Assembly (NCBI GenBank): GCA_021399395.1
Contig: JAAFKJ010000061.1
Span: 1-26,072 of the forward strand
From: Candidatus Heimdallarchaeota archaeon
GTDB taxonomy: Archaea > Asgardarchaeota > Heimdallarchaeia > Heimdallarchaeales > Heimdallarchaeaceae
DNA length: 26,072 bases
Direction of reading: 5' to 3'
Numbering within the stretch: the stretch's first letter is position 1; every line of letters starts with the position of its first letter. Both the position numbers and the translations under genes were made by a program. Shown here in pieces: positions 1 through 3,659 of the stretch. The notes below the pieces were generated by a model. The model was not told where the DNA came from, searched no databases, and worked only from the letters and a program-made list of their open reading frames with translations.

Positions 1-14
1 CATTTTTCTACGAG

Positions 15-22
15 TTTAAATA
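15..22 (+). promoter_or_regulatory. Putative archaeal TATA box for the structured RNA
   Basis: TTTAAATA at 15-22, about 20-25 nt upstream of the start of the GC-rich island (GGTAGTGC at 41). A second TATATA at 35-40 could serve a minus-strand gene whose ATG would be the CAT at 1-3. Confidence 0.4.
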
Positions 23-40
23 TGAAAGTAAGGATATATA

Positions 41-312
41 GGTAGTGCTAGGTGAATACTCACCTTTCCTATGGTTCGCAGGTGCGTGATCACCTGTCCT
101 TCAGTTAGTAAAATTTGAACCGTTCAGCACGTCGCGCAATGGATGGAATGACGTCGGAGTTCATGCGCACTCCCTTCGTTCCTCCCTCAATCATGGTTCT
201 CATGATTCTTCCCCTCAACGCACGTGAGGGGACCTACTTAAACGACGGTTAAACGCCCTCTGGCAAGTTTGACCAAGTTTCATAACGTGCGTTAGAGTAA
301 GGAGGATAAGGT
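41..312 (+). ncRNA. Putative structured non-coding RNA of unknown family
   Basis: About 49% GC by hand count (133/270 over 41-310) in an AT-rich window, with no ORF in the supplied track. Stems: 51-55/60-64, 71-77/117-123, 79-84/91-96, 129-133/150-154, 156-160/169-173, 189-195/201-207, 210-217/225-232, and long-range 217-225/285-293. G-U wobbles (U72-G122, G78-U97, G134-U149) favour the + strand. Confidence 0.6.
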
Positions 313-317
313 ATGAA

Positions 318-650
318 TTAACTTCCAGATAAGATTTCTGGAGAATAATTTAATACTTGTTCTCTTTGTAAGATTTTTTCTGCATCGAATTGCTCAATGT
401 TCCTAGATAATGTCTTTCTTATGAGTATTTGGTGCTTATCCATTTGAATCTTAGAGCAGAGCAACCCTTTGGTACATGAACCTTTGCCGAAATATACCCC
501 CTTCTTGGTATCATAGAAGAAGGAACCCCCTTTGCTTGGGCAATTACAGATTTCCAAAAATACTGGAGAATCGCTGTAACCGCTGTTATTTTGAATTCTA
601 GCGATAGCTTTCTCGAGTTTGAATGTGAGATAAGTATCTTTTGTTCTCAT
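318..650 (-). CDS. Hypothetical protein with four Cys (CNC...C-x5-C)
   Basis: ORF of ~110 aa filling the gap between the RNA island and the trpF-like gene. ATG at 650 is preferred to the TTG at 662. No family recognised. Confidence 0.45.
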   Translation of the reverse strand: MRTKDTYLTFKLEKAIARIQNNSGYSDSPVFLEICNCPSKGGSFFYDTKKGVYFGKGSCTKGLLCSKIQMDKHQILIRKTLSRNIEQFDAEKILQREQVLNYSPEILSGS

Positions 651-821
651 ATAACTCAACAAAAGTACCCACTTATCTATTAAGTAATATTGTAATATCC
701 AGAAATTATACTTGACTCTTCACAGATACAATCCAGATATCATCCAATTATTCTGTAGACTAGAAATTGGATGGGAAAACATTAAAAATACAAGCATACT
801 TTATCACTTGAGGTTATTAGA

Positions 822-1514
822 TTGTGGATTGCAAAAATCTCAGGCGTAACAAGCTTTGACGCTGCTTTATCTGTAGATGTATCATCTTTTTTTGCTATAG
901 GAGCTATTATAGATAATATAAATGATGTAAGATCTGTTAGTAAATTTGATGCACGTAGAATCTTTGCTAATGTAGAACATTGTATAACAATTGCTGAAAT
1001 AGTACCTGATTCCATTGATGACATATTTGATGCCGAAGATGCATGTAAACCCAATATAATCCAGATAAATGGAACTTTCTTTGATGACATCAATAATCTC
1101 ATATCTGTTCAATCAATTGTTACAATCCCTATTATTGGATCAATCTTTCTTAACAAGGATACTCTGGAATCAAATATTATTGACCCTGATCCCGTTAAAG
1201 CAGCACAGACATTAGAGCAATATGTACAAATTGTCAACATCAATCTCCCTCTCGGTCAAAGCTGGAAACAAGAAAAACAAAGAAACGGTGTAATTGAAAT
1301 TGTCAAAACCATCCAAAACTCCATTCATAAACCGCTGATAATTGGTGGTGGATTGAATTCAAGCAATGTGACTGAAATAGCTTCAGAGTTAGAACCCAAT
1401 GCTATTGATGTTTCATCTGGTGTTGAAAAAATATCTGGGATAAAAAATCCTGAACTAATGCAGGAGTTTCTACAGGTTATTTATGACAATAAAGAGAGTC
1501 TAAAGGGAGTTTAA
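822..1514 (+). CDS. trpF: Phosphoribosylanthranilate isomerase (TrpF)-like TIM barrel, catalytically degenerate
   Basis: N-terminal AKISGVT (cf. VKICGIT), IIQING (cf. VQLHG), and C-terminal IIGGGLNSSNV...AIDVSSGVEK..GIKN (cf. LAGGL.peNV...vDVSSGVE..pG.KD). Confidence 0.75.
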   Translation: MWIAKISGVTSFDAALSVDVSSFFAIGAIIDNINDVRSVSKFDARRIFANVEHCITIAEIVPDSIDDIFDAEDACKPNIIQINGTFFDDINNLISVQSIVTIPIIGSIFLNKDTLESNIIDPDPVKAAQTLEQYVQIVNINLPLGQSWKQEKQRNGVIEIVKTIQNSIHKPLIIGGGLNSSNVTEIASELEPNAIDVSSGVEKISGIKNPELMQEFLQVIYDNKESLKGV

Positions 1515-2380: not shown

Positions 2381-2920
2381 ATGACCTTAACCCCCAATGT
2401 CACTTATATCATCAAAATCATCAATGCAGGAGATTTTCGTGTAGGAAAAACCAGTCTAGCAATACGATATACTCAGAACCGATTTTCAACTTCTTATCTC
2501 CCAACATTAGGTGTTGATTTTTACAGTAAAATCATTCAATTTGATGAGGATACTACTCTTAGATTAGTTTTATTTGATACAGTGGGTCAAGAGAAACTTG
2601 CTACATTACGTAAGCGATATTATACAGGAGCTCATGGTGCAGTTGTTGTTTTTGATGTAACAAGGAGAGAATCCTTTGATCATATTGAAAATTGGATCAG
2701 TGAAGTCGAAGAAAAATGTCCAGATATTCCAATAATTATTGTTGGTAATAAAACAGATTTGGAAGAAGAACGAGCTGTAACCTGTGAAGAAGCATTAGAA
2801 AAATGGGGCTCCAAAAATTACACATTTCTAGAATCATCAGCAAAATTAGACGAAGGAGTAACCGATATTTATACCATTATTGCAAAACAAGTGATGGAAA
2901 AACAAGAAGCGTCTAATTAG
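2381..2920 (+). CDS. Rab-like small GTPase (Ras superfamily)
   Basis: G1 GDFRVGKTS, G2 YLPTLGVDF, G3 DTVGQE, YYTGA (RabF4-like), G4 GNKTD, G5 ESSAK. No C-terminal Cys prenylation motif. Confidence 0.92.
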   Translation: MTLTPNVTYIIKIINAGDFRVGKTSLAIRYTQNRFSTSYLPTLGVDFYSKIIQFDEDTTLRLVLFDTVGQEKLATLRKRYYTGAHGAVVVFDVTRRESFDHIENWISEVEEKCPDIPIIIVGNKTDLEEERAVTCEEALEKWGSKNYTFLESSAKLDEGVTDIYTIIAKQVMEKQEASN

Positions 2921-3659
2921 CTCGCCAAAGTTCCACAGCAATTATTTTACCATTTTCCAGAAAGAGTCTTGGAGTATAATCATCAGCTACAAAAGATCCA
3001 TCAGGTAACTTCACTTTGGATTCTGTATCTGGATTTTCTAGATTTTCAGGAGCTATATACAATGTGTCATTAATTAGAATATAATCTCTAATACTACTCC
3101 CAATAGGTGGTAAAACTTTTAGTTGTGTGACAATGTGTTCAACATCAACTATTGAAGTTTCGACGGCTTTTGAAGTATATCTTCTTTCAGTAGTTGCTTT
3201 AGGTTTTGTTTCTGTTTTTGGCTTAGGTTTGGGTTTAGGCTTTGTTTCTGTTTTTGGCTTAGGTTTGGGTTTAGGCTTTGGATCAGCTTTAGAAATAGGT
3301 TTAACTGGTTTTGGTTTAACTGTAGAATCAGATTGAATGTTACAAGCTTCGTCTACTGCTTGAAGGAACTCATTATTTGTTTCAGCTTCTTCCAAGTTTA
3401 CAATCTTATAACCTAGTTCCATTCTTAATCTTGCAGTTTCTCGAGCACATGCAAATTTAGAATGTGGGGATGACTGACCTCCAATCCAGATATAGATTTT
3501 CTTCTGCGAGTGAGAAATAACAACTAAAACATTTGTTGACGCAAGTGCAACTTCTTTGTTTTCACACTCAGTCATTTCACCAGTTGATTGAATAATATAA
3601 AGAGTCATATGATTCGAGTAAAAAATATCGTCTACATTTTTATTCGTTTCGTTAGTCAC
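2913..3659 (-). CDS. Gelsolin/villin-like single-domain protein with Pro/Lys-rich linker and unknown C-terminal domain
   Basis: LASTNVLVVISHSQKKIYIWIGGQSS...KFACARETARL...LEEAET resembles the gelsolin repeat (L.s.dvfild....iyvW.G..s...Ek..A). It is followed by KPKPKPKPKTET repeats and ~80 aa of unknown domain. GTG start. Confidence 0.7.
   Translation of the reverse strand: MTNETNKNVDDIFYSNHMTLYIIQSTGEMTECENKEVALASTNVLVVISHSQKKIYIWIGGQSSPHSKFACARETARLRMELGYKIVNLEEAETNNEFLQAVDEACNIQSDSTVKPKPVKPISKADPKPKPKPKPKTETKPKPKPKPKTETKPKATTERRYTSKAVETSIVDVEHIVTQLKVLPPIGSSIRDYILINDTLYIAPENLENPDTESKVKLPDGSFVADDYTPRLFLENGKIIAVELWRAN
3205..3280. repeat. Exact 36-bp tandem duplication (2 copies + 4 nt) encoding KPKPKPKPKTET
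   Basis: tttgtttctgtttttggcttaggtttgggtttaggc at 3205-3240 and 3241-3276. Confidence 0.95.

What the first reader, a model, noticed from the sequence alone, without database searches (positions are those of the whole stretch)
41..312. Unassigned ~270-nt highly structured RNA with its own TATA box
Seen: a non-coding island at ~49% GC in an AT-rich window, almost tiled by stems (51-55/60-64, 71-77/117-123 enclosing 79-84/91-96, 129-133/150-154, 156-160/169-173, 189-195/201-207, 210-217/225-232). It also has possible end-closing pairings (62-70 with 303-312, or 180-185 with 301-306), TTTAAATA at 15-22, and G-U wobbles all on the + strand. Known: in AT-rich archaea, structural RNAs stand out as GC islands. 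I could not find the signatures of tRNA, 5S, SRP helix 8, RNase P CR-I/CR-V, group II domain V or C/D boxes. Inference: a standalone ncRNA or ribozyme of an undescribed class, or the RNA part of a non-autonomous mobile element.
Basis: partly seen in the sequence, partly recalled or inferred. Interest (0 to 1): 0.8.

Follow-up and report, generated by a model that had tools for sequence, protein, structure and literature searches.

The report
Guide-RNA gene of a gene-less transposon
The structured GC-rich RNA is real, but it is most likely the guide-RNA part of a small, protein-less copy of an IS607-type jumping gene of a Heimdall-group archaeon, which would work with a distant TnpB/Cas12f-like protein encoded elsewhere in the genome.

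Summary
Window 41-292 is a non-coding island of about 49% GC with conserved helices backed by compensatory changes and a conserved TATA block. It matches no Rfam family.

It is not a single-copy RNA of a new class. It is the right-hand part of a roughly 395-bp gene-less mobile element. The left end lies on contig C75, which overlaps the window start.
- Seven of seven orthologous loci examined in related genomes lack the element.
- Thirty copies end at the same base (window 292) and have 30 different flanks beyond it.
- The last ~88 nt also form the right end of a ~2.7-kb IS607-type element. That element encodes a MerR-HTH serine recombinase and a 647-aa protein with Cas12f/TnpB fold and motifs, but with His where the RuvC-III Asp is expected.
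- The gene-less copies keep the left end, the promoter block found upstream of the tnpB-like gene, and the right end.
- A pseudoknot next to the boundary covaries at 3 of 5 pairs.

Best reading (about 0.75): a promoter-driven omega/reRNA-like guide RNA whose guide is the flank from 293 onward, used in trans. Expression, protein binding and cleavage are inferred, not shown. I rate it a new variant of a known kind, of moderate interest.

The parts
1..292 (+). Right-hand 292 bp of a gene-less IS607-type derivative of about 393-398 bp. The left ~106 bp, including the junction pentamer ACCGT, lie on contig C75 (40829-40934) of the same assembly. The last 83 nt of C75 equal window 1-83.
   Evidence: Searches show the C75/window overlap is identical. 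Searches show the flanks adjacent in 7 of 7 orthologous loci of related genomes. One search shows a sharp 3' boundary in 30 of 30 copies.
4..30 (+). Conserved promoter-like block with the TATA box TTTAAATA at 15-22. The same block (TTTTTCTcgGGTTTATATA) precedes the 647-aa tnpB-like ORF in the autonomous copies.
   Evidence: alignment of the gene-less copies. (the block upstream of the ORF in C28 and C195). (the type B copies). Promoter activity is inferred, not shown.
41..292 (+). Conserved RNA scaffold, omega/reRNA-like. The 5' end near 41-46 is inferred from the distance to the TATA box.
   Evidence: Alignment A1 of 30 copies. With the structure I named, 97.4% of cells are paired against 30-43% when partners are slid. 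Nine pairs and 78 cells show double changes. Covariation is 0.145 against 0.086 in shuffles, reached by 0 of 500 shuffles.
45..130 (+). 5' multi-helix domain: closing helix 45-49/126-130, H1 50-54/61-65, H2 70-77/117-124, H3 80-84/91-95. It occurs only in gene-less copies.
   Evidence: H1, H2 and H3 each have 2 pairs with compensatory changes. The closing helix can pair in 27 of 27 ungapped rows but shows no double change. Type B copies have an equivalent core with its own covariation. nhmmer finds no counterpart in the ORF-linked copies.
131..189 (+). Central region whose fold is not resolved. Candidate pairings are 134-138/164-168 (one pair with 8 double changes, 90.3% paired) and 156-159/170-173 (conserved, no covariation).
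190..206 (+). Hairpin ATCATGG-TTC-TCATGAT. Type B copies carry a different hairpin at the same position.
   Evidence: 98.5% paired, no double change..
205..292 (+). 3' module shared by gene-less and ORF-linked copies, forming the transposon right end. In the autonomous copies the ORF runs into the module, with its stop codon in or next to the first hairpin.
   Evidence: 84 modules collected. Covariance model R1 finds it in 24 of 47 genomes of the order, all in two genera.
210..232 (+). Hairpin 210-217/225-232 with the 7-nt loop ACGCACG (218-224).
   Evidence: 98.0% paired in 70 distinct rows.
219..291 (+). Pseudoknot between loop CGCAC (219-223) and GUGCG (287-291), one base before the boundary. 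It could extend to 218-225/285-292.
   Evidence: 99.4% paired. Three of 5 pairs have double changes (CG to UA in 2 rows, GC to AU in 6, CG to UA in 1). Slid controls for the whole structure give 18-43% paired. One search shows the 8-bp version in type B copies.
240..280 (+). Stem 240-243/277-280 enclosing stem 247-253/268-274.
   Evidence: The outer stem is essentially invariant. The inner stem has 4 pairs with double changes and many G-U pairs.
257..271 (.). Sub-terminal arm CCTCTGGCAAGTTTG. It is an imperfect inverted match (13 of 15) to C75:40860-40874 near the left end. It may be a TnpA binding site.
   Evidence: The function is inferred.
293..312 (+). Flank immediately after the boundary and the putative guide segment if the transcript reads through. 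The 20-nt length is assumed by analogy, not measured.
   Evidence: 30 different flanks in 30 copies. The same sequence, diverged, follows an A-Y-Y-G-T pentamer in the empty sites of G021 and G017.

Best explanation
Window 41-292 encodes the scaffold of an omega/reRNA-type guide RNA. It is carried by a gene-less, non-autonomous derivative of an IS607-type insertion sequence of a Heimdallarchaeaceae genus.

The autonomous element is about 2.7 kb. G000:C28:23610-26339 is one copy. Its order is: left end, tnpA (MerR-HTH plus serine-recombinase domain), promoter, a 647-aa TnpB/Cas12f-like gene, right end. The small element keeps the left end, the promoter block of the tnpB-like gene and the last ~88 nt (the right end). 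The genes are replaced by a ~155-nt structured 5' RNA domain.

Proposed mechanism, by analogy with characterised TnpB systems:
1. The conserved TATA promoter starts a transcript near 41-46.
2. The transcript runs through the scaffold and across the boundary at 292/293, so its 3' end carries the flank as a guide.
3. The TnpB-like protein, made from autonomous copies (three in this genome), binds the shared 3' module (hairpin, pseudoknot, stem).
4. It then recognises the empty allele: the pentamer A-C-Y-G-T followed by the guide-matching flank.
5. Cutting or binding that site favours retention of the element. TnpA supplied in trans moves it.

Shown: the repeat, its exact ends, the empty sites, the shared ends and promoter block, the RNA covariation including the pseudoknot, and the Cas12f/TnpB fold of the partner.

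Inferred: transcription, read-through, binding, the TAM, and any nuclease activity.
For: Repeat and mobility.
- 21 of 24 other genomes of the genus match. None of 16 genomes from other genera of the order does.
- The 3' module model R1 matches 24 of 47 genomes of the order, all in two genera, with up to 27 places in one genome and 7 in G000.
- 30 copies have 30 different 3' flanks after ...CATAACGTGCGT.
- The left flanks also differ.
- At the window's own locus, 7 of 7 orthologous loci examined lack the element. In G021 and G017 the two flanks are adjacent.

Link to the IS.
- In 10 of 13 loci first examined, the module sits at the end of a long ORF.
- Three full ORFs in G000 are 641-647 aa.
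- The upstream ORF has Pfam Resolvase (E 1.1e-20) and MerR (E 1.6e-9).
- The left end of the gene-less copy aligns at about 70% to the left end of all three autonomous copies.
- The promoter block is shared.

Partner protein.
- Pfam Cas12f1-like TNB, E 9.8e-6. NCBIfam guided_TnpB, E 1.1e-3.
- A profile of 21 members hits Cas12f and TnpB-like chains in the PDB at E 5e-5 to 1e-3.
- The AlphaFold model has pLDDT 83.9. Foldseek gives 61 PDB matches at E<=0.001. The top ones are all Cas12f, TnpB or other Cas12, including the IS607 ISFba1 TnpB-reRNA complex 8iaz (E 8.5e-8) and ISDra2 TnpB 8h1j (E 3.2e-6).

RNA rather than DNA signal.
- Compensatory changes occur in H1-H3 and in the 3' stem.
- The pseudoknot next to the boundary has 3 of 5 pairs covarying.
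- G-U pairs would be A-C on the other strand.
- A second gene-less subfamily (type B) has different sequence but the same architecture.

Literature (passages read).
- Gene-less PATE elements 'often encode omega RNAs' that TnpB acts on in trans (10.1101/2023.03.14.532601).
- An IS607 TnpB uses a 187-nt reRNA scaffold with stem-loops, two pseudoknots and a 5-nt TAM (PMC11061315).
Against: - No transcript evidence is available, so the start, end and read-through are inferred.
- The RuvC-III aspartate is replaced by histidine in all 21 aligned family members (VNTHxNAAxNI). Nuclease activity is therefore uncertain.
- The 5' ~155 nt of this RNA has no detectable counterpart in the ORF-linked copies. 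The coding 3' end of the ORF shows no convincing conserved helices: 3 double-change pairs among 44 predicted pairs in 10 sequences. So it is not shown that the protein accepts the gene-less RNA, or why that RNA needs the extra domain.
- The pentamer at the left junction reads ATTGT and ATCGT in the two adjacent empty sites, not ACCGT. Its role is unresolved: TAM, recombination core or part of the element.
- The Pfam and NCBIfam matches of the protein are below their curated cut-offs (26.1 against 26.3 bits; 18.4 against 100 bits).
- All genomes are incomplete metagenome-type assemblies, so copy numbers are lower bounds.
Confidence: 0.75

Rival explanations
1. The conservation is a DNA-level signal only. 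The ~290 bp are binding and synapsis sites for the IS607 serine recombinase, and the apparent RNA structure is a by-product. No functional RNA is made.
For: - The 3' module is the transposon right end.
- A sub-terminal 13-of-15 inverted match links the left and right ends.
- The hairpins in the 3' half are almost invariant, so covariation says little about them.
- No RNA data exist.
Against: - Compensatory double changes keep pairing in H1, H2, H3, the inner 3' stem and the pseudoknot.
- Many pairs are G-U, which is A-C on the other strand and unpaired in a DNA cruciform reading of that strand.
- A conserved TATA block points into the structure.
- The type B subfamily changes sequence but keeps the helices.
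- Autonomous copies transpose without the 5' domain, since they lack it. That domain is therefore not needed as an end signal.
Confidence: 0.1
2. The protein family is nuclease-dead (His for Asp in RuvC-III). The RNAs guide binding only, for example transcriptional repression of the neighbouring gene or another non-cutting role, as in TldR or Cas12m-type systems. The window copy would then regulate what lies at 293 onward.
For: - His618 is invariant in 21 of 21 aligned members, where Cas12f and TnpB have the catalytic Asp.
- Inactivated TnpB derivatives with presumed regulatory roles are described (PMC10691335, passages; abstracts of 10.1101/2023.11.30.569447 and 10.64898/2026.09.22.753285 in the search listing).
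Against: - The RuvC-I Asp (D433) and RuvC-II Glu (E531) are invariant.
- PMC10691335 (passages) reports large TnpB branches with Asp to His in RuvC-III. It argues that conserved replacements imply retained nuclease activity.
- The elements are multi-copy, at unrelated sites and polymorphic between genomes, and they travel with a transposase. That is selfish-element behaviour, not a fixed regulator.
Confidence: 0.1
3. An independent structured ncRNA or ribozyme of a new class that merely rides on a mobile element. Examples would be a self-cleaving or self-processing RNA, with no role as a guide for the TnpB-like protein.
For: - There is no Rfam match.
- The 5' domain (45-130) is found only in gene-less copies and is under structural selection.
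- Its function is not explained by the known parts of TnpB guide RNAs.
Against: - The RNA always ends in the module that forms the right end of the tnpB-like gene, and its last helix is a pseudoknot abutting the variable flank.
- R1 module matches occur only in two genera that also carry the full-length protein.
Confidence: 0.05

Closest known systems
TnpB omega RNA / reRNA of IS607-family elements (ISFba1 TnpB with RAGATH-18-derived reRNA; PMC11061315, passages read; PDB 8iaz)
   Same: - The transposon has a serine-recombinase TnpA and a TnpB-family protein.
- The RNA scaffold ends at the right-end boundary, with the guide taken from the flank.
- The scaffold has stem-loops plus a pseudoknot.
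- A 5-nt motif sits next to the target.
- Foldseek matches the partner's model to 8iaz at E 8.5e-8.
   Different: - There is no Rfam match, RAGATH-18 included.
- The scaffold is about 250 nt, against 187 nt.
- The partner is 647 aa, against 387 aa, with a long helical N-terminal half.
- RuvC-III has His instead of Asp.
- The candidate motif is ACYGT, not AGGAG.
- The host is an Asgard archaeon.
- The window copy has no protein gene and has its own promoter.
PATE-like gene-less IS200/IS605 derivatives that encode omega RNAs (Meers et al. preprint 10.1101/2023.03.14.532601, passages read)
   Same: - Minimal elements without protein genes keep both transposon ends and a guide-RNA scaffold.
- They must be served in trans by TnpA and TnpB from other copies.
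   Different: - Those belong to Y1-transposase IS200/IS605 elements with palindromic ends in bacteria.
- Here the transposase is an IS607-type serine recombinase.
- Here the element carries the promoter block of the tnpB-like gene.
- Here the RNA has an extra ~155-nt 5' domain that is absent from the autonomous copies.
TnpB branches with altered RuvC-III, including RIIIr-4 (Asp to His) (Altae-Tran et al. 2023, PMC10691335, passages read)
   Same: The catalytic Asp of RuvC-III is replaced by a conserved His.
   Different: - RIIIr-4 is said to lack the C4 zinc finger and to associate with an RHH/MazE-like protein.
- This family keeps a His/Cys-x2-Cys...Cys-x2-Cys finger (H587, C590, C608, C611) and travels with a serine recombinase.
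- I could not check whether this family is one of the paper's six branches, because supplements are closed.
Classical MITEs
   Same: Small, multi-copy, non-autonomous derivatives of an insertion sequence.
   Different: - There are no terminal inverted repeats at the tips and no target-site duplication at the empty-site comparison.
- The element carries a transcribed structured RNA.

Membership tests
TnpB/OMEGA guide RNA (omega RNA, reRNA) | The scaffold lies at the transposon right end and stops exactly at the element boundary. | tested here: met
   30 of 30 copies end at ...CATAACGTGCGT (rare single-base variants) and diverge from the next base. The same holds for the 84 modules.
TnpB/OMEGA guide RNA (omega RNA, reRNA) | The scaffold is encoded at or overlapping the 3' end of a tnpB-family gene. 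| tested here: met
   This is met for the ORF-linked copies: 10 of 13 loci, and three full ORFs in G000. The window's own copy has no ORF. It shares only the last ~88 nt with them.
TnpB/OMEGA guide RNA (omega RNA, reRNA) | The partner protein has the TnpB/Cas12 fold (WED/REC, split RuvC, zinc finger). | tested here: met
   Profile hits to Cas12f and TnpB-like PDB chains. Foldseek top hits are all Cas12f, TnpB or other Cas12, with 61 at E<=0.001. Pfam and NCBIfam hits are just below or far below their cut-offs.
TnpB/OMEGA guide RNA (omega RNA, reRNA) | The RuvC catalytic triad Asp-Glu-Asp is intact. | tested here: not met
   D433 and E531 are invariant. The third position is His618 in 21 of 21 members. 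Activity is unknown.
TnpB/OMEGA guide RNA (omega RNA, reRNA) | A target-adjacent motif flanks the left end and precedes the guide-matching sequence in the empty site. | tested here: inconclusive
   The MAFFT alignment shows the consensus ACCGT at the left junction. It reads ACTGT in 3 of 3 autonomous copies. Empty sites read ATTGT and ATCGT before the flank. My regex count forced A at position 1 and restricted the other positions, so it is not independent. The motif could also be a recombination core.
TnpB/OMEGA guide RNA (omega RNA, reRNA) | The RNA is expressed, carries the flank as guide and forms an RNP that acts on matching DNA. | not testable with these tools
   No RNA data could be used. 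See Tried and rejected.
IS607 family | TnpA is a serine recombinase with an N-terminal MerR-like HTH and a resolvase catalytic domain. | tested here: met
   L028:898-1494 has Pfam Resolvase at E 1.1e-20 (residues 64-192) and MerR at E 1.6e-9 (residues 4-41).
IS607 family | No terminal inverted repeats and no target-site duplication. | tested here: met
   The empty-site comparison shows no duplication beyond a shared YGT at both junctions. There is only a sub-terminal 13-of-15 inverted match. The family feature is as stated in the abstract of PMC6188088 (search listing).
Any Rfam family (including RAGATH-18, HEARO, SRP, RNase P) | A covariance-model match. | tested here: not met
   0 matches at gathering score. 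Only two chance-level matches at E<=10, neither to such a family.
Classical MITE | Terminal inverted repeats plus a target-site duplication. | tested here: not met

The most novel reading that the evidence does not exclude
Heimdall-group archaea host an undescribed RNA-guided system. Its protein is a large (about 650 aa) TnpB/Cas12f-like protein with a conserved Asp-Glu-His RuvC site. It is served by ~250-nt guide RNAs.

Alongside it run 'RNA-only' selfish elements. These have replaced the protein genes with a new, structurally selected 5' RNA domain (two subfamilies) driven by the captured promoter of the tnpB-like gene. That domain could let the gene-less RNA compete for, or be stabilised on, a protein made elsewhere. 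This would be a guide-RNA parasite of a guide-RNA transposon.
Probability: 0.3. Interest if true: 0.65.

Novelty: new variant of a known kind. Interest (0 to 1): 0.5.

Why it matters
It explains a conspicuous unassigned structured RNA as part of a transposon-borne RNA-guided system, so it need not be chased as a new ribozyme class.

It also points to an Asgard-specific branch of the TnpB/Cas12 family with three unusual features: an unusually large protein, a conserved His in the RuvC-III site, and an RNA scaffold that no family model covers.

The gene-less copies give a natural experiment. There are dozens of promoter-driven guide-RNA genes with exact boundaries, known empty sites and a candidate 5-nt adjacent motif. 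That makes the system directly testable in vitro. It is of some interest for how guide RNAs detach from their nuclease genes, a step on the road from TnpB to CRISPR arrays, and for genome annotation of Asgard assemblies, where these repeats break contigs.

Tried and rejected
Known RNA families. The Rfam scans found nothing usable and ARAGORN found no tRNA. SRP RNA and RNase P RNA, which I suspected from the size, are rejected on the Rfam result.

Retroelement idea. The many 5'-shortened matches sharing one 3' end first suggested target-primed reverse transcription. I rejected this when the short matches turned out to be the end of a long ORF.

RNAalifold's long-range pairing of GCAC (127-130) with GUGC (287-290). 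I set it aside in favour of two pairings. One is the closing helix 45-49/126-130. The other is the loop/3'-end pseudoknot, which covaries. The long-range pairing shows no double change.

A blind scan of all column pairs for covariation was useless. Two main clades make many unrelated columns covary.

Homology of the 5' domain to any part of the autonomous element. nhmmer found none at E<=1 beyond the 3' module.

Conserved structure in the coding 3' end of the ORF. The result was weak.

RNA evidence. No RNA holder was listed for window 1-700. The one run offered (X1, kept as contigs, probably DNA) held only two contigs at 90-95% likeness, covering 74-292 and 208-294 with other flanks. These are relatives' copies. 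This says nothing about expression.

Literature. Searches for 'Heimdallarchae' plus 'TnpB' (2 papers, neither on this element) and for Asgard, insertion sequence, omega RNA, aloposon and MITE found no description of this element in the held library. So did the passages read in PMC13343696. Supplements are closed. The supplementary trees and tables of PMC10691335 may already list this protein clade.

Complex prediction was not used. It scores protein-protein contacts, and the claim here is protein-RNA.
Full report
WHAT IS THERE

Window 41-312 sits in a stretch of 48-53% GC (100-nt windows). The genome is 34.3% GC. It holds no ORF longer than 45 aa and no tRNA, and it matches no Rfam family. There were 0 matches at gathering score over the whole window. 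At E<=10 over 1-450 there were only two chance-level matches, neither inside the scaffold. The single-sequence fold is only mildly better than shuffled controls: plus strand -88.6 kcal/mol, z -2.69; minus strand z -2.17. Energy alone would therefore not carry the claim.

IT IS A REPEAT WITH EXACT ENDS

BLAST of window 30-320 against the window's own assembly (G000, 201 contigs) found further copies or pieces on contigs C18, C28, C5, C132, C195, C163 and C75. In relatives, 21 of 24 other genomes of the same genus matched. None of 16 genomes from other genera of the order did.

Many matches covered only the last 85-95 nt and many lay at contig ends. The window begins at the start of contig C152. 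The last 83 nt of contig C75 are identical to window 1-83, so the assembler broke at the repeat.

I aligned 30 full copies (the window's plus 29 from 12 genomes). Similarity ends abruptly after ...CATAACGTGCGT at window 292, and all 30 flanks beyond it differ. On the left, the conserved part starts at ACCGTAAAC about 106 nt upstream of window 1, at C75:40829. The flanks upstream of that again all differ. The unit is about 393-398 bp.

IT IS AN INSERTION

I searched the right flank (window 293-900) in the genus. It matched 20 of 24 other genomes. In the seven orthologous loci I examined, the C75 flank and the C152 flank lie 2-56 nt apart, instead of about 395-450 nt apart as in G000. In G021 and G017 the flanks are adjacent:

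- own: ...AATAAAACCT ACCGT [AAACTAC ... ACGTGCGT] TAGAGTAAGG...
- G021: ...AATAAAACCT ATTGT TAGAATTAGG...
- G017: ...ATAAAACCT ATCGT TAGAATATGAAGG...

This confirms that C75 and C152 join, and it shows no target-site duplication. A YGT is shared by both junctions, so the exact crossover cannot be placed within it.

THE PARENT ELEMENT

In 10 of 13 loci first examined, the short 3' module sits at the end of a long plus-strand ORF. G000 has three full copies of this ORF, of 641-647 aa, inside a repeat of about 2.7 kb (C28:23610-26339). Upstream of the ORF lies a 199-aa ORF with Pfam MerR (E 1.6e-9, residues 4-41) and Resolvase (E 1.1e-20, residues 64-192). That is the domain order of IS607-type serine transposases. 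The C132 copy has lost most of this gene.

The 647-aa protein (P0001) shows the following.
- It gets Pfam Cas12f1-like TNB at E 9.8e-6 (26.1 bits, cut-off 26.3) and NCBIfam guided_TnpB at E 1.1e-3.
- It has 131 relatives at E<=0.001. Those that are named are Candidatus Heimdallarchaeaceae or Heimdallarchaeota, with one Thorarchaeota. They are called hypothetical, transposase or zinc-ribbon proteins.
- A profile of 21 diverse members hits Cas12f and TnpB-like chains in the PDB at E 5e-5 to 1e-3 over the RuvC-II/zinc-finger/RuvC-III region.
- An AlphaFold model built with that alignment has pLDDT 83.9 and pTM 0.60. Foldseek gives 61 PDB matches at E<=0.001. The top ones are all Cas12f, TnpB or other Cas12, including the IS607 ISFba1 TnpB-reRNA complex (8iaz, E 8.5e-8) and ISDra2 TnpB (8h1j, E 3.2e-6).
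- In the family alignment, D433 (LGxDINR) and E531 are invariant. The position aligned to the RuvC-III Asp of Cas12f is an invariant His (VNTHxNAAxNI, H618).

Altae-Tran et al. (PMC10691335, passages) describe several large TnpB branches with altered RuvC-III, one of them Asp to His. They argue that such conserved replacements imply retained activity. I could not place this family in their tree.

With the profile, 40 of 400 genomes of the phylum match at E<=1e-20. Full-length matches occur in 24 of 24 genomes of the genus and 2 of 2 of a sister genus.

WHAT THE GENE-LESS COPY KEEPS

Compared with the autonomous element, the window's element keeps three things.
- The left end. It aligns at about 70% identity over ~40 nt, at the same position in all three autonomous copies.
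- The promoter-like block. It reads TTTTTCTACGAGTTTAAATA in the window (4-22) and TTTTTCTCGGGTTTATATA in front of the 647-aa ORF.
- The last ~88 nt.

nhmmer with the 30-copy profile matches the ORF-linked copies only over model positions 156/167-252. The ~155 nt between the promoter and the module have no detectable counterpart in the autonomous element.

A second gene-less subfamily, type B, has 10 copies among those I fetched. It has the same left end, promoter block and 3' module. Its 5' domain differs in sequence but has the same core: GGTTCGCA, hairpin, TCCCTCAGT, GAACC.

THE RNA STRUCTURE

I counted pairs on the 30-copy alignment A1. With the structure I named (57 pairs), 97.4% of cells pair, against 30-43% when partners are slid by 1-3 columns. 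Nine pairs (78 cells) have changes on both sides. The covariation score is 0.145 against 0.086 in shuffles, reached by 0 of 500 shuffles. The tool warns that related sequences can beat shuffles without structure, so I rely mainly on the per-helix double changes and the slid controls.

Helices in window coordinates:
- Closing helix 45-49/126-130. It can pair in 27 of 27 ungapped rows, with no double change.
- H1 50-54/61-65, H2 70-77/117-124 and H3 80-84/91-95. Each has two covarying pairs.
- Hairpins 190-196/200-206 and 210-217/225-232. Both are conserved.
- Stems 240-243/277-280 and 247-253/268-274.

The middle part, 131-189, is not resolved.

I then aligned the 3' module from 78 copies, which give 70 distinct rows. 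They include gene-less and ORF-linked copies. The loop CGCAC (219-223) pairs with GUGCG (287-291) in 99.4% of cells. Three of the five pairs show double changes: CG to UA in 2 rows, GC to AU in 6 rows, and CG to UA in 1 row. The slid controls for the whole structure give 18-43% paired. This is a pseudoknot ending one base before the boundary.

Several pairs are mostly G-U, which fits an RNA read from the plus strand. Type B copies fold into an equivalent arrangement with their own compensatory changes.

A covariance model of the module (R1) matches 24 of 47 genomes of the order. That is the window's genus (21 of 24, plus G000) and one sister genus (2 of 2), with 0 of 20 genomes in 11 other genera. 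It finds up to 27 places in one genome and 7 in G000.

HOW IT MOST LIKELY WORKS

The arrangement matches the known logic of TnpB systems in four respects.
- A scaffold ends at the right-end boundary.
- A variable flank lies directly after it.
- A TnpB-family gene sits in front of it in the autonomous form.
- A short conserved motif sits at the left junction: consensus ACCGT in the unbiased alignment, and ACTGT in 3 of 3 autonomous copies.

In that logic, the transcript reads across the boundary and uses the flank as guide. The protein recognises the empty site, motif plus flank. Action there favours keeping or restoring the element (Meers et al. preprint, passages; IS607 TnpB reRNA, PMC11061315, passages).

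The gene-less copies would be served in trans, as proposed for PATE-like elements that 'often encode omega RNAs'. G000 has the needed genes: two copies with tnpA and three with the TnpB-like ORF.

What differs from the described cases:
- the captured promoter;
- the extra 5' domain that only gene-less copies have;
- the size of the protein;
- the His in RuvC-III;
- the host lineage.

WHAT IS NOT SHOWN

The following are not shown: transcription, the RNA ends, read-through, binding by the protein, the role of the pentamer, and any cleavage. The His replacement leaves open a binding-only role. The empty sites read ATTGT and ATCGT rather than ACCGT. The motif may therefore be looser than the consensus, or partly belong to the element, or be a recombination core.

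VERDICT

The 'new class of RNA or ribozyme' reading is unlikely. The 'RNA part of a non-autonomous mobile element' reading is well supported. It is a new variant of a known kind, of moderate interest.

Noticed in passing
G000:C28:24345-26288 (P0001) and its family (alignment A2): The TnpB/Cas12f-like partner has an invariant His (H618, VNTHxNAAxNI) where Cas12f and TnpB have the RuvC-III catalytic Asp. D433 and E531 are kept. A further invariant Asp (D604) sits just before the second Cys pair (C608, C611) of the zinc finger. The N-terminal ~300 residues are predicted all-helical and have no family match.
   Followed up: partly
Loci L083, L081, L082, L088, L090, L077, L023, L100, L075 and L084 (genomes G001, G009, G013, G014, G018, G023, G024): A second gene-less subfamily (type B) has the same left end, promoter block and 3' module but a different 5' RNA domain. 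L075 carries an internal duplication of part of that domain.
   Followed up: partly
G000:C18:67913-68166 (locus L031): The second type A copy in the same genome has a 38-nt deletion that removes H3 and one strand of H2. It is probably a decayed copy.
   Followed up: no
G004, G006 and G003 (same genus): These genomes have the protein family at lower scores (about 780-985 bits) but no match to the 3' module model R1 or to the window RNA. A divergent subfamily with a different RNA end may exist there.
   Followed up: no
window 2381-2920 (+): A 179-aa ORF carries small-GTPase motifs (GDFRVGKTS, DTVGQE, NKTDL, SAK), read by eye from the translation. It was not run against any family library. It fits an Asgard host.
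   Followed up: no
window 2913-3659 (-): A 248-aa ORF has a Lys/Pro-rich repeat (KPKPKPKPKTETKPKPKPKPKTETKPK) in its middle, seen. It was not examined.
   Followed up: no
window 318-662 (-): A 114-aa ORF ends 26 nt after the element boundary. It has no Pfam match at E<=0.01. Its region is conserved at the orthologous loci.
   Followed up: partly
Many contig ends in G005, G008, G012, G013 and G023: Copies of this repeat often lie at the first or last bases of contigs. The element is therefore a frequent cause of assembly breaks in these genomes, and copy numbers are underestimates.
   Followed up: no
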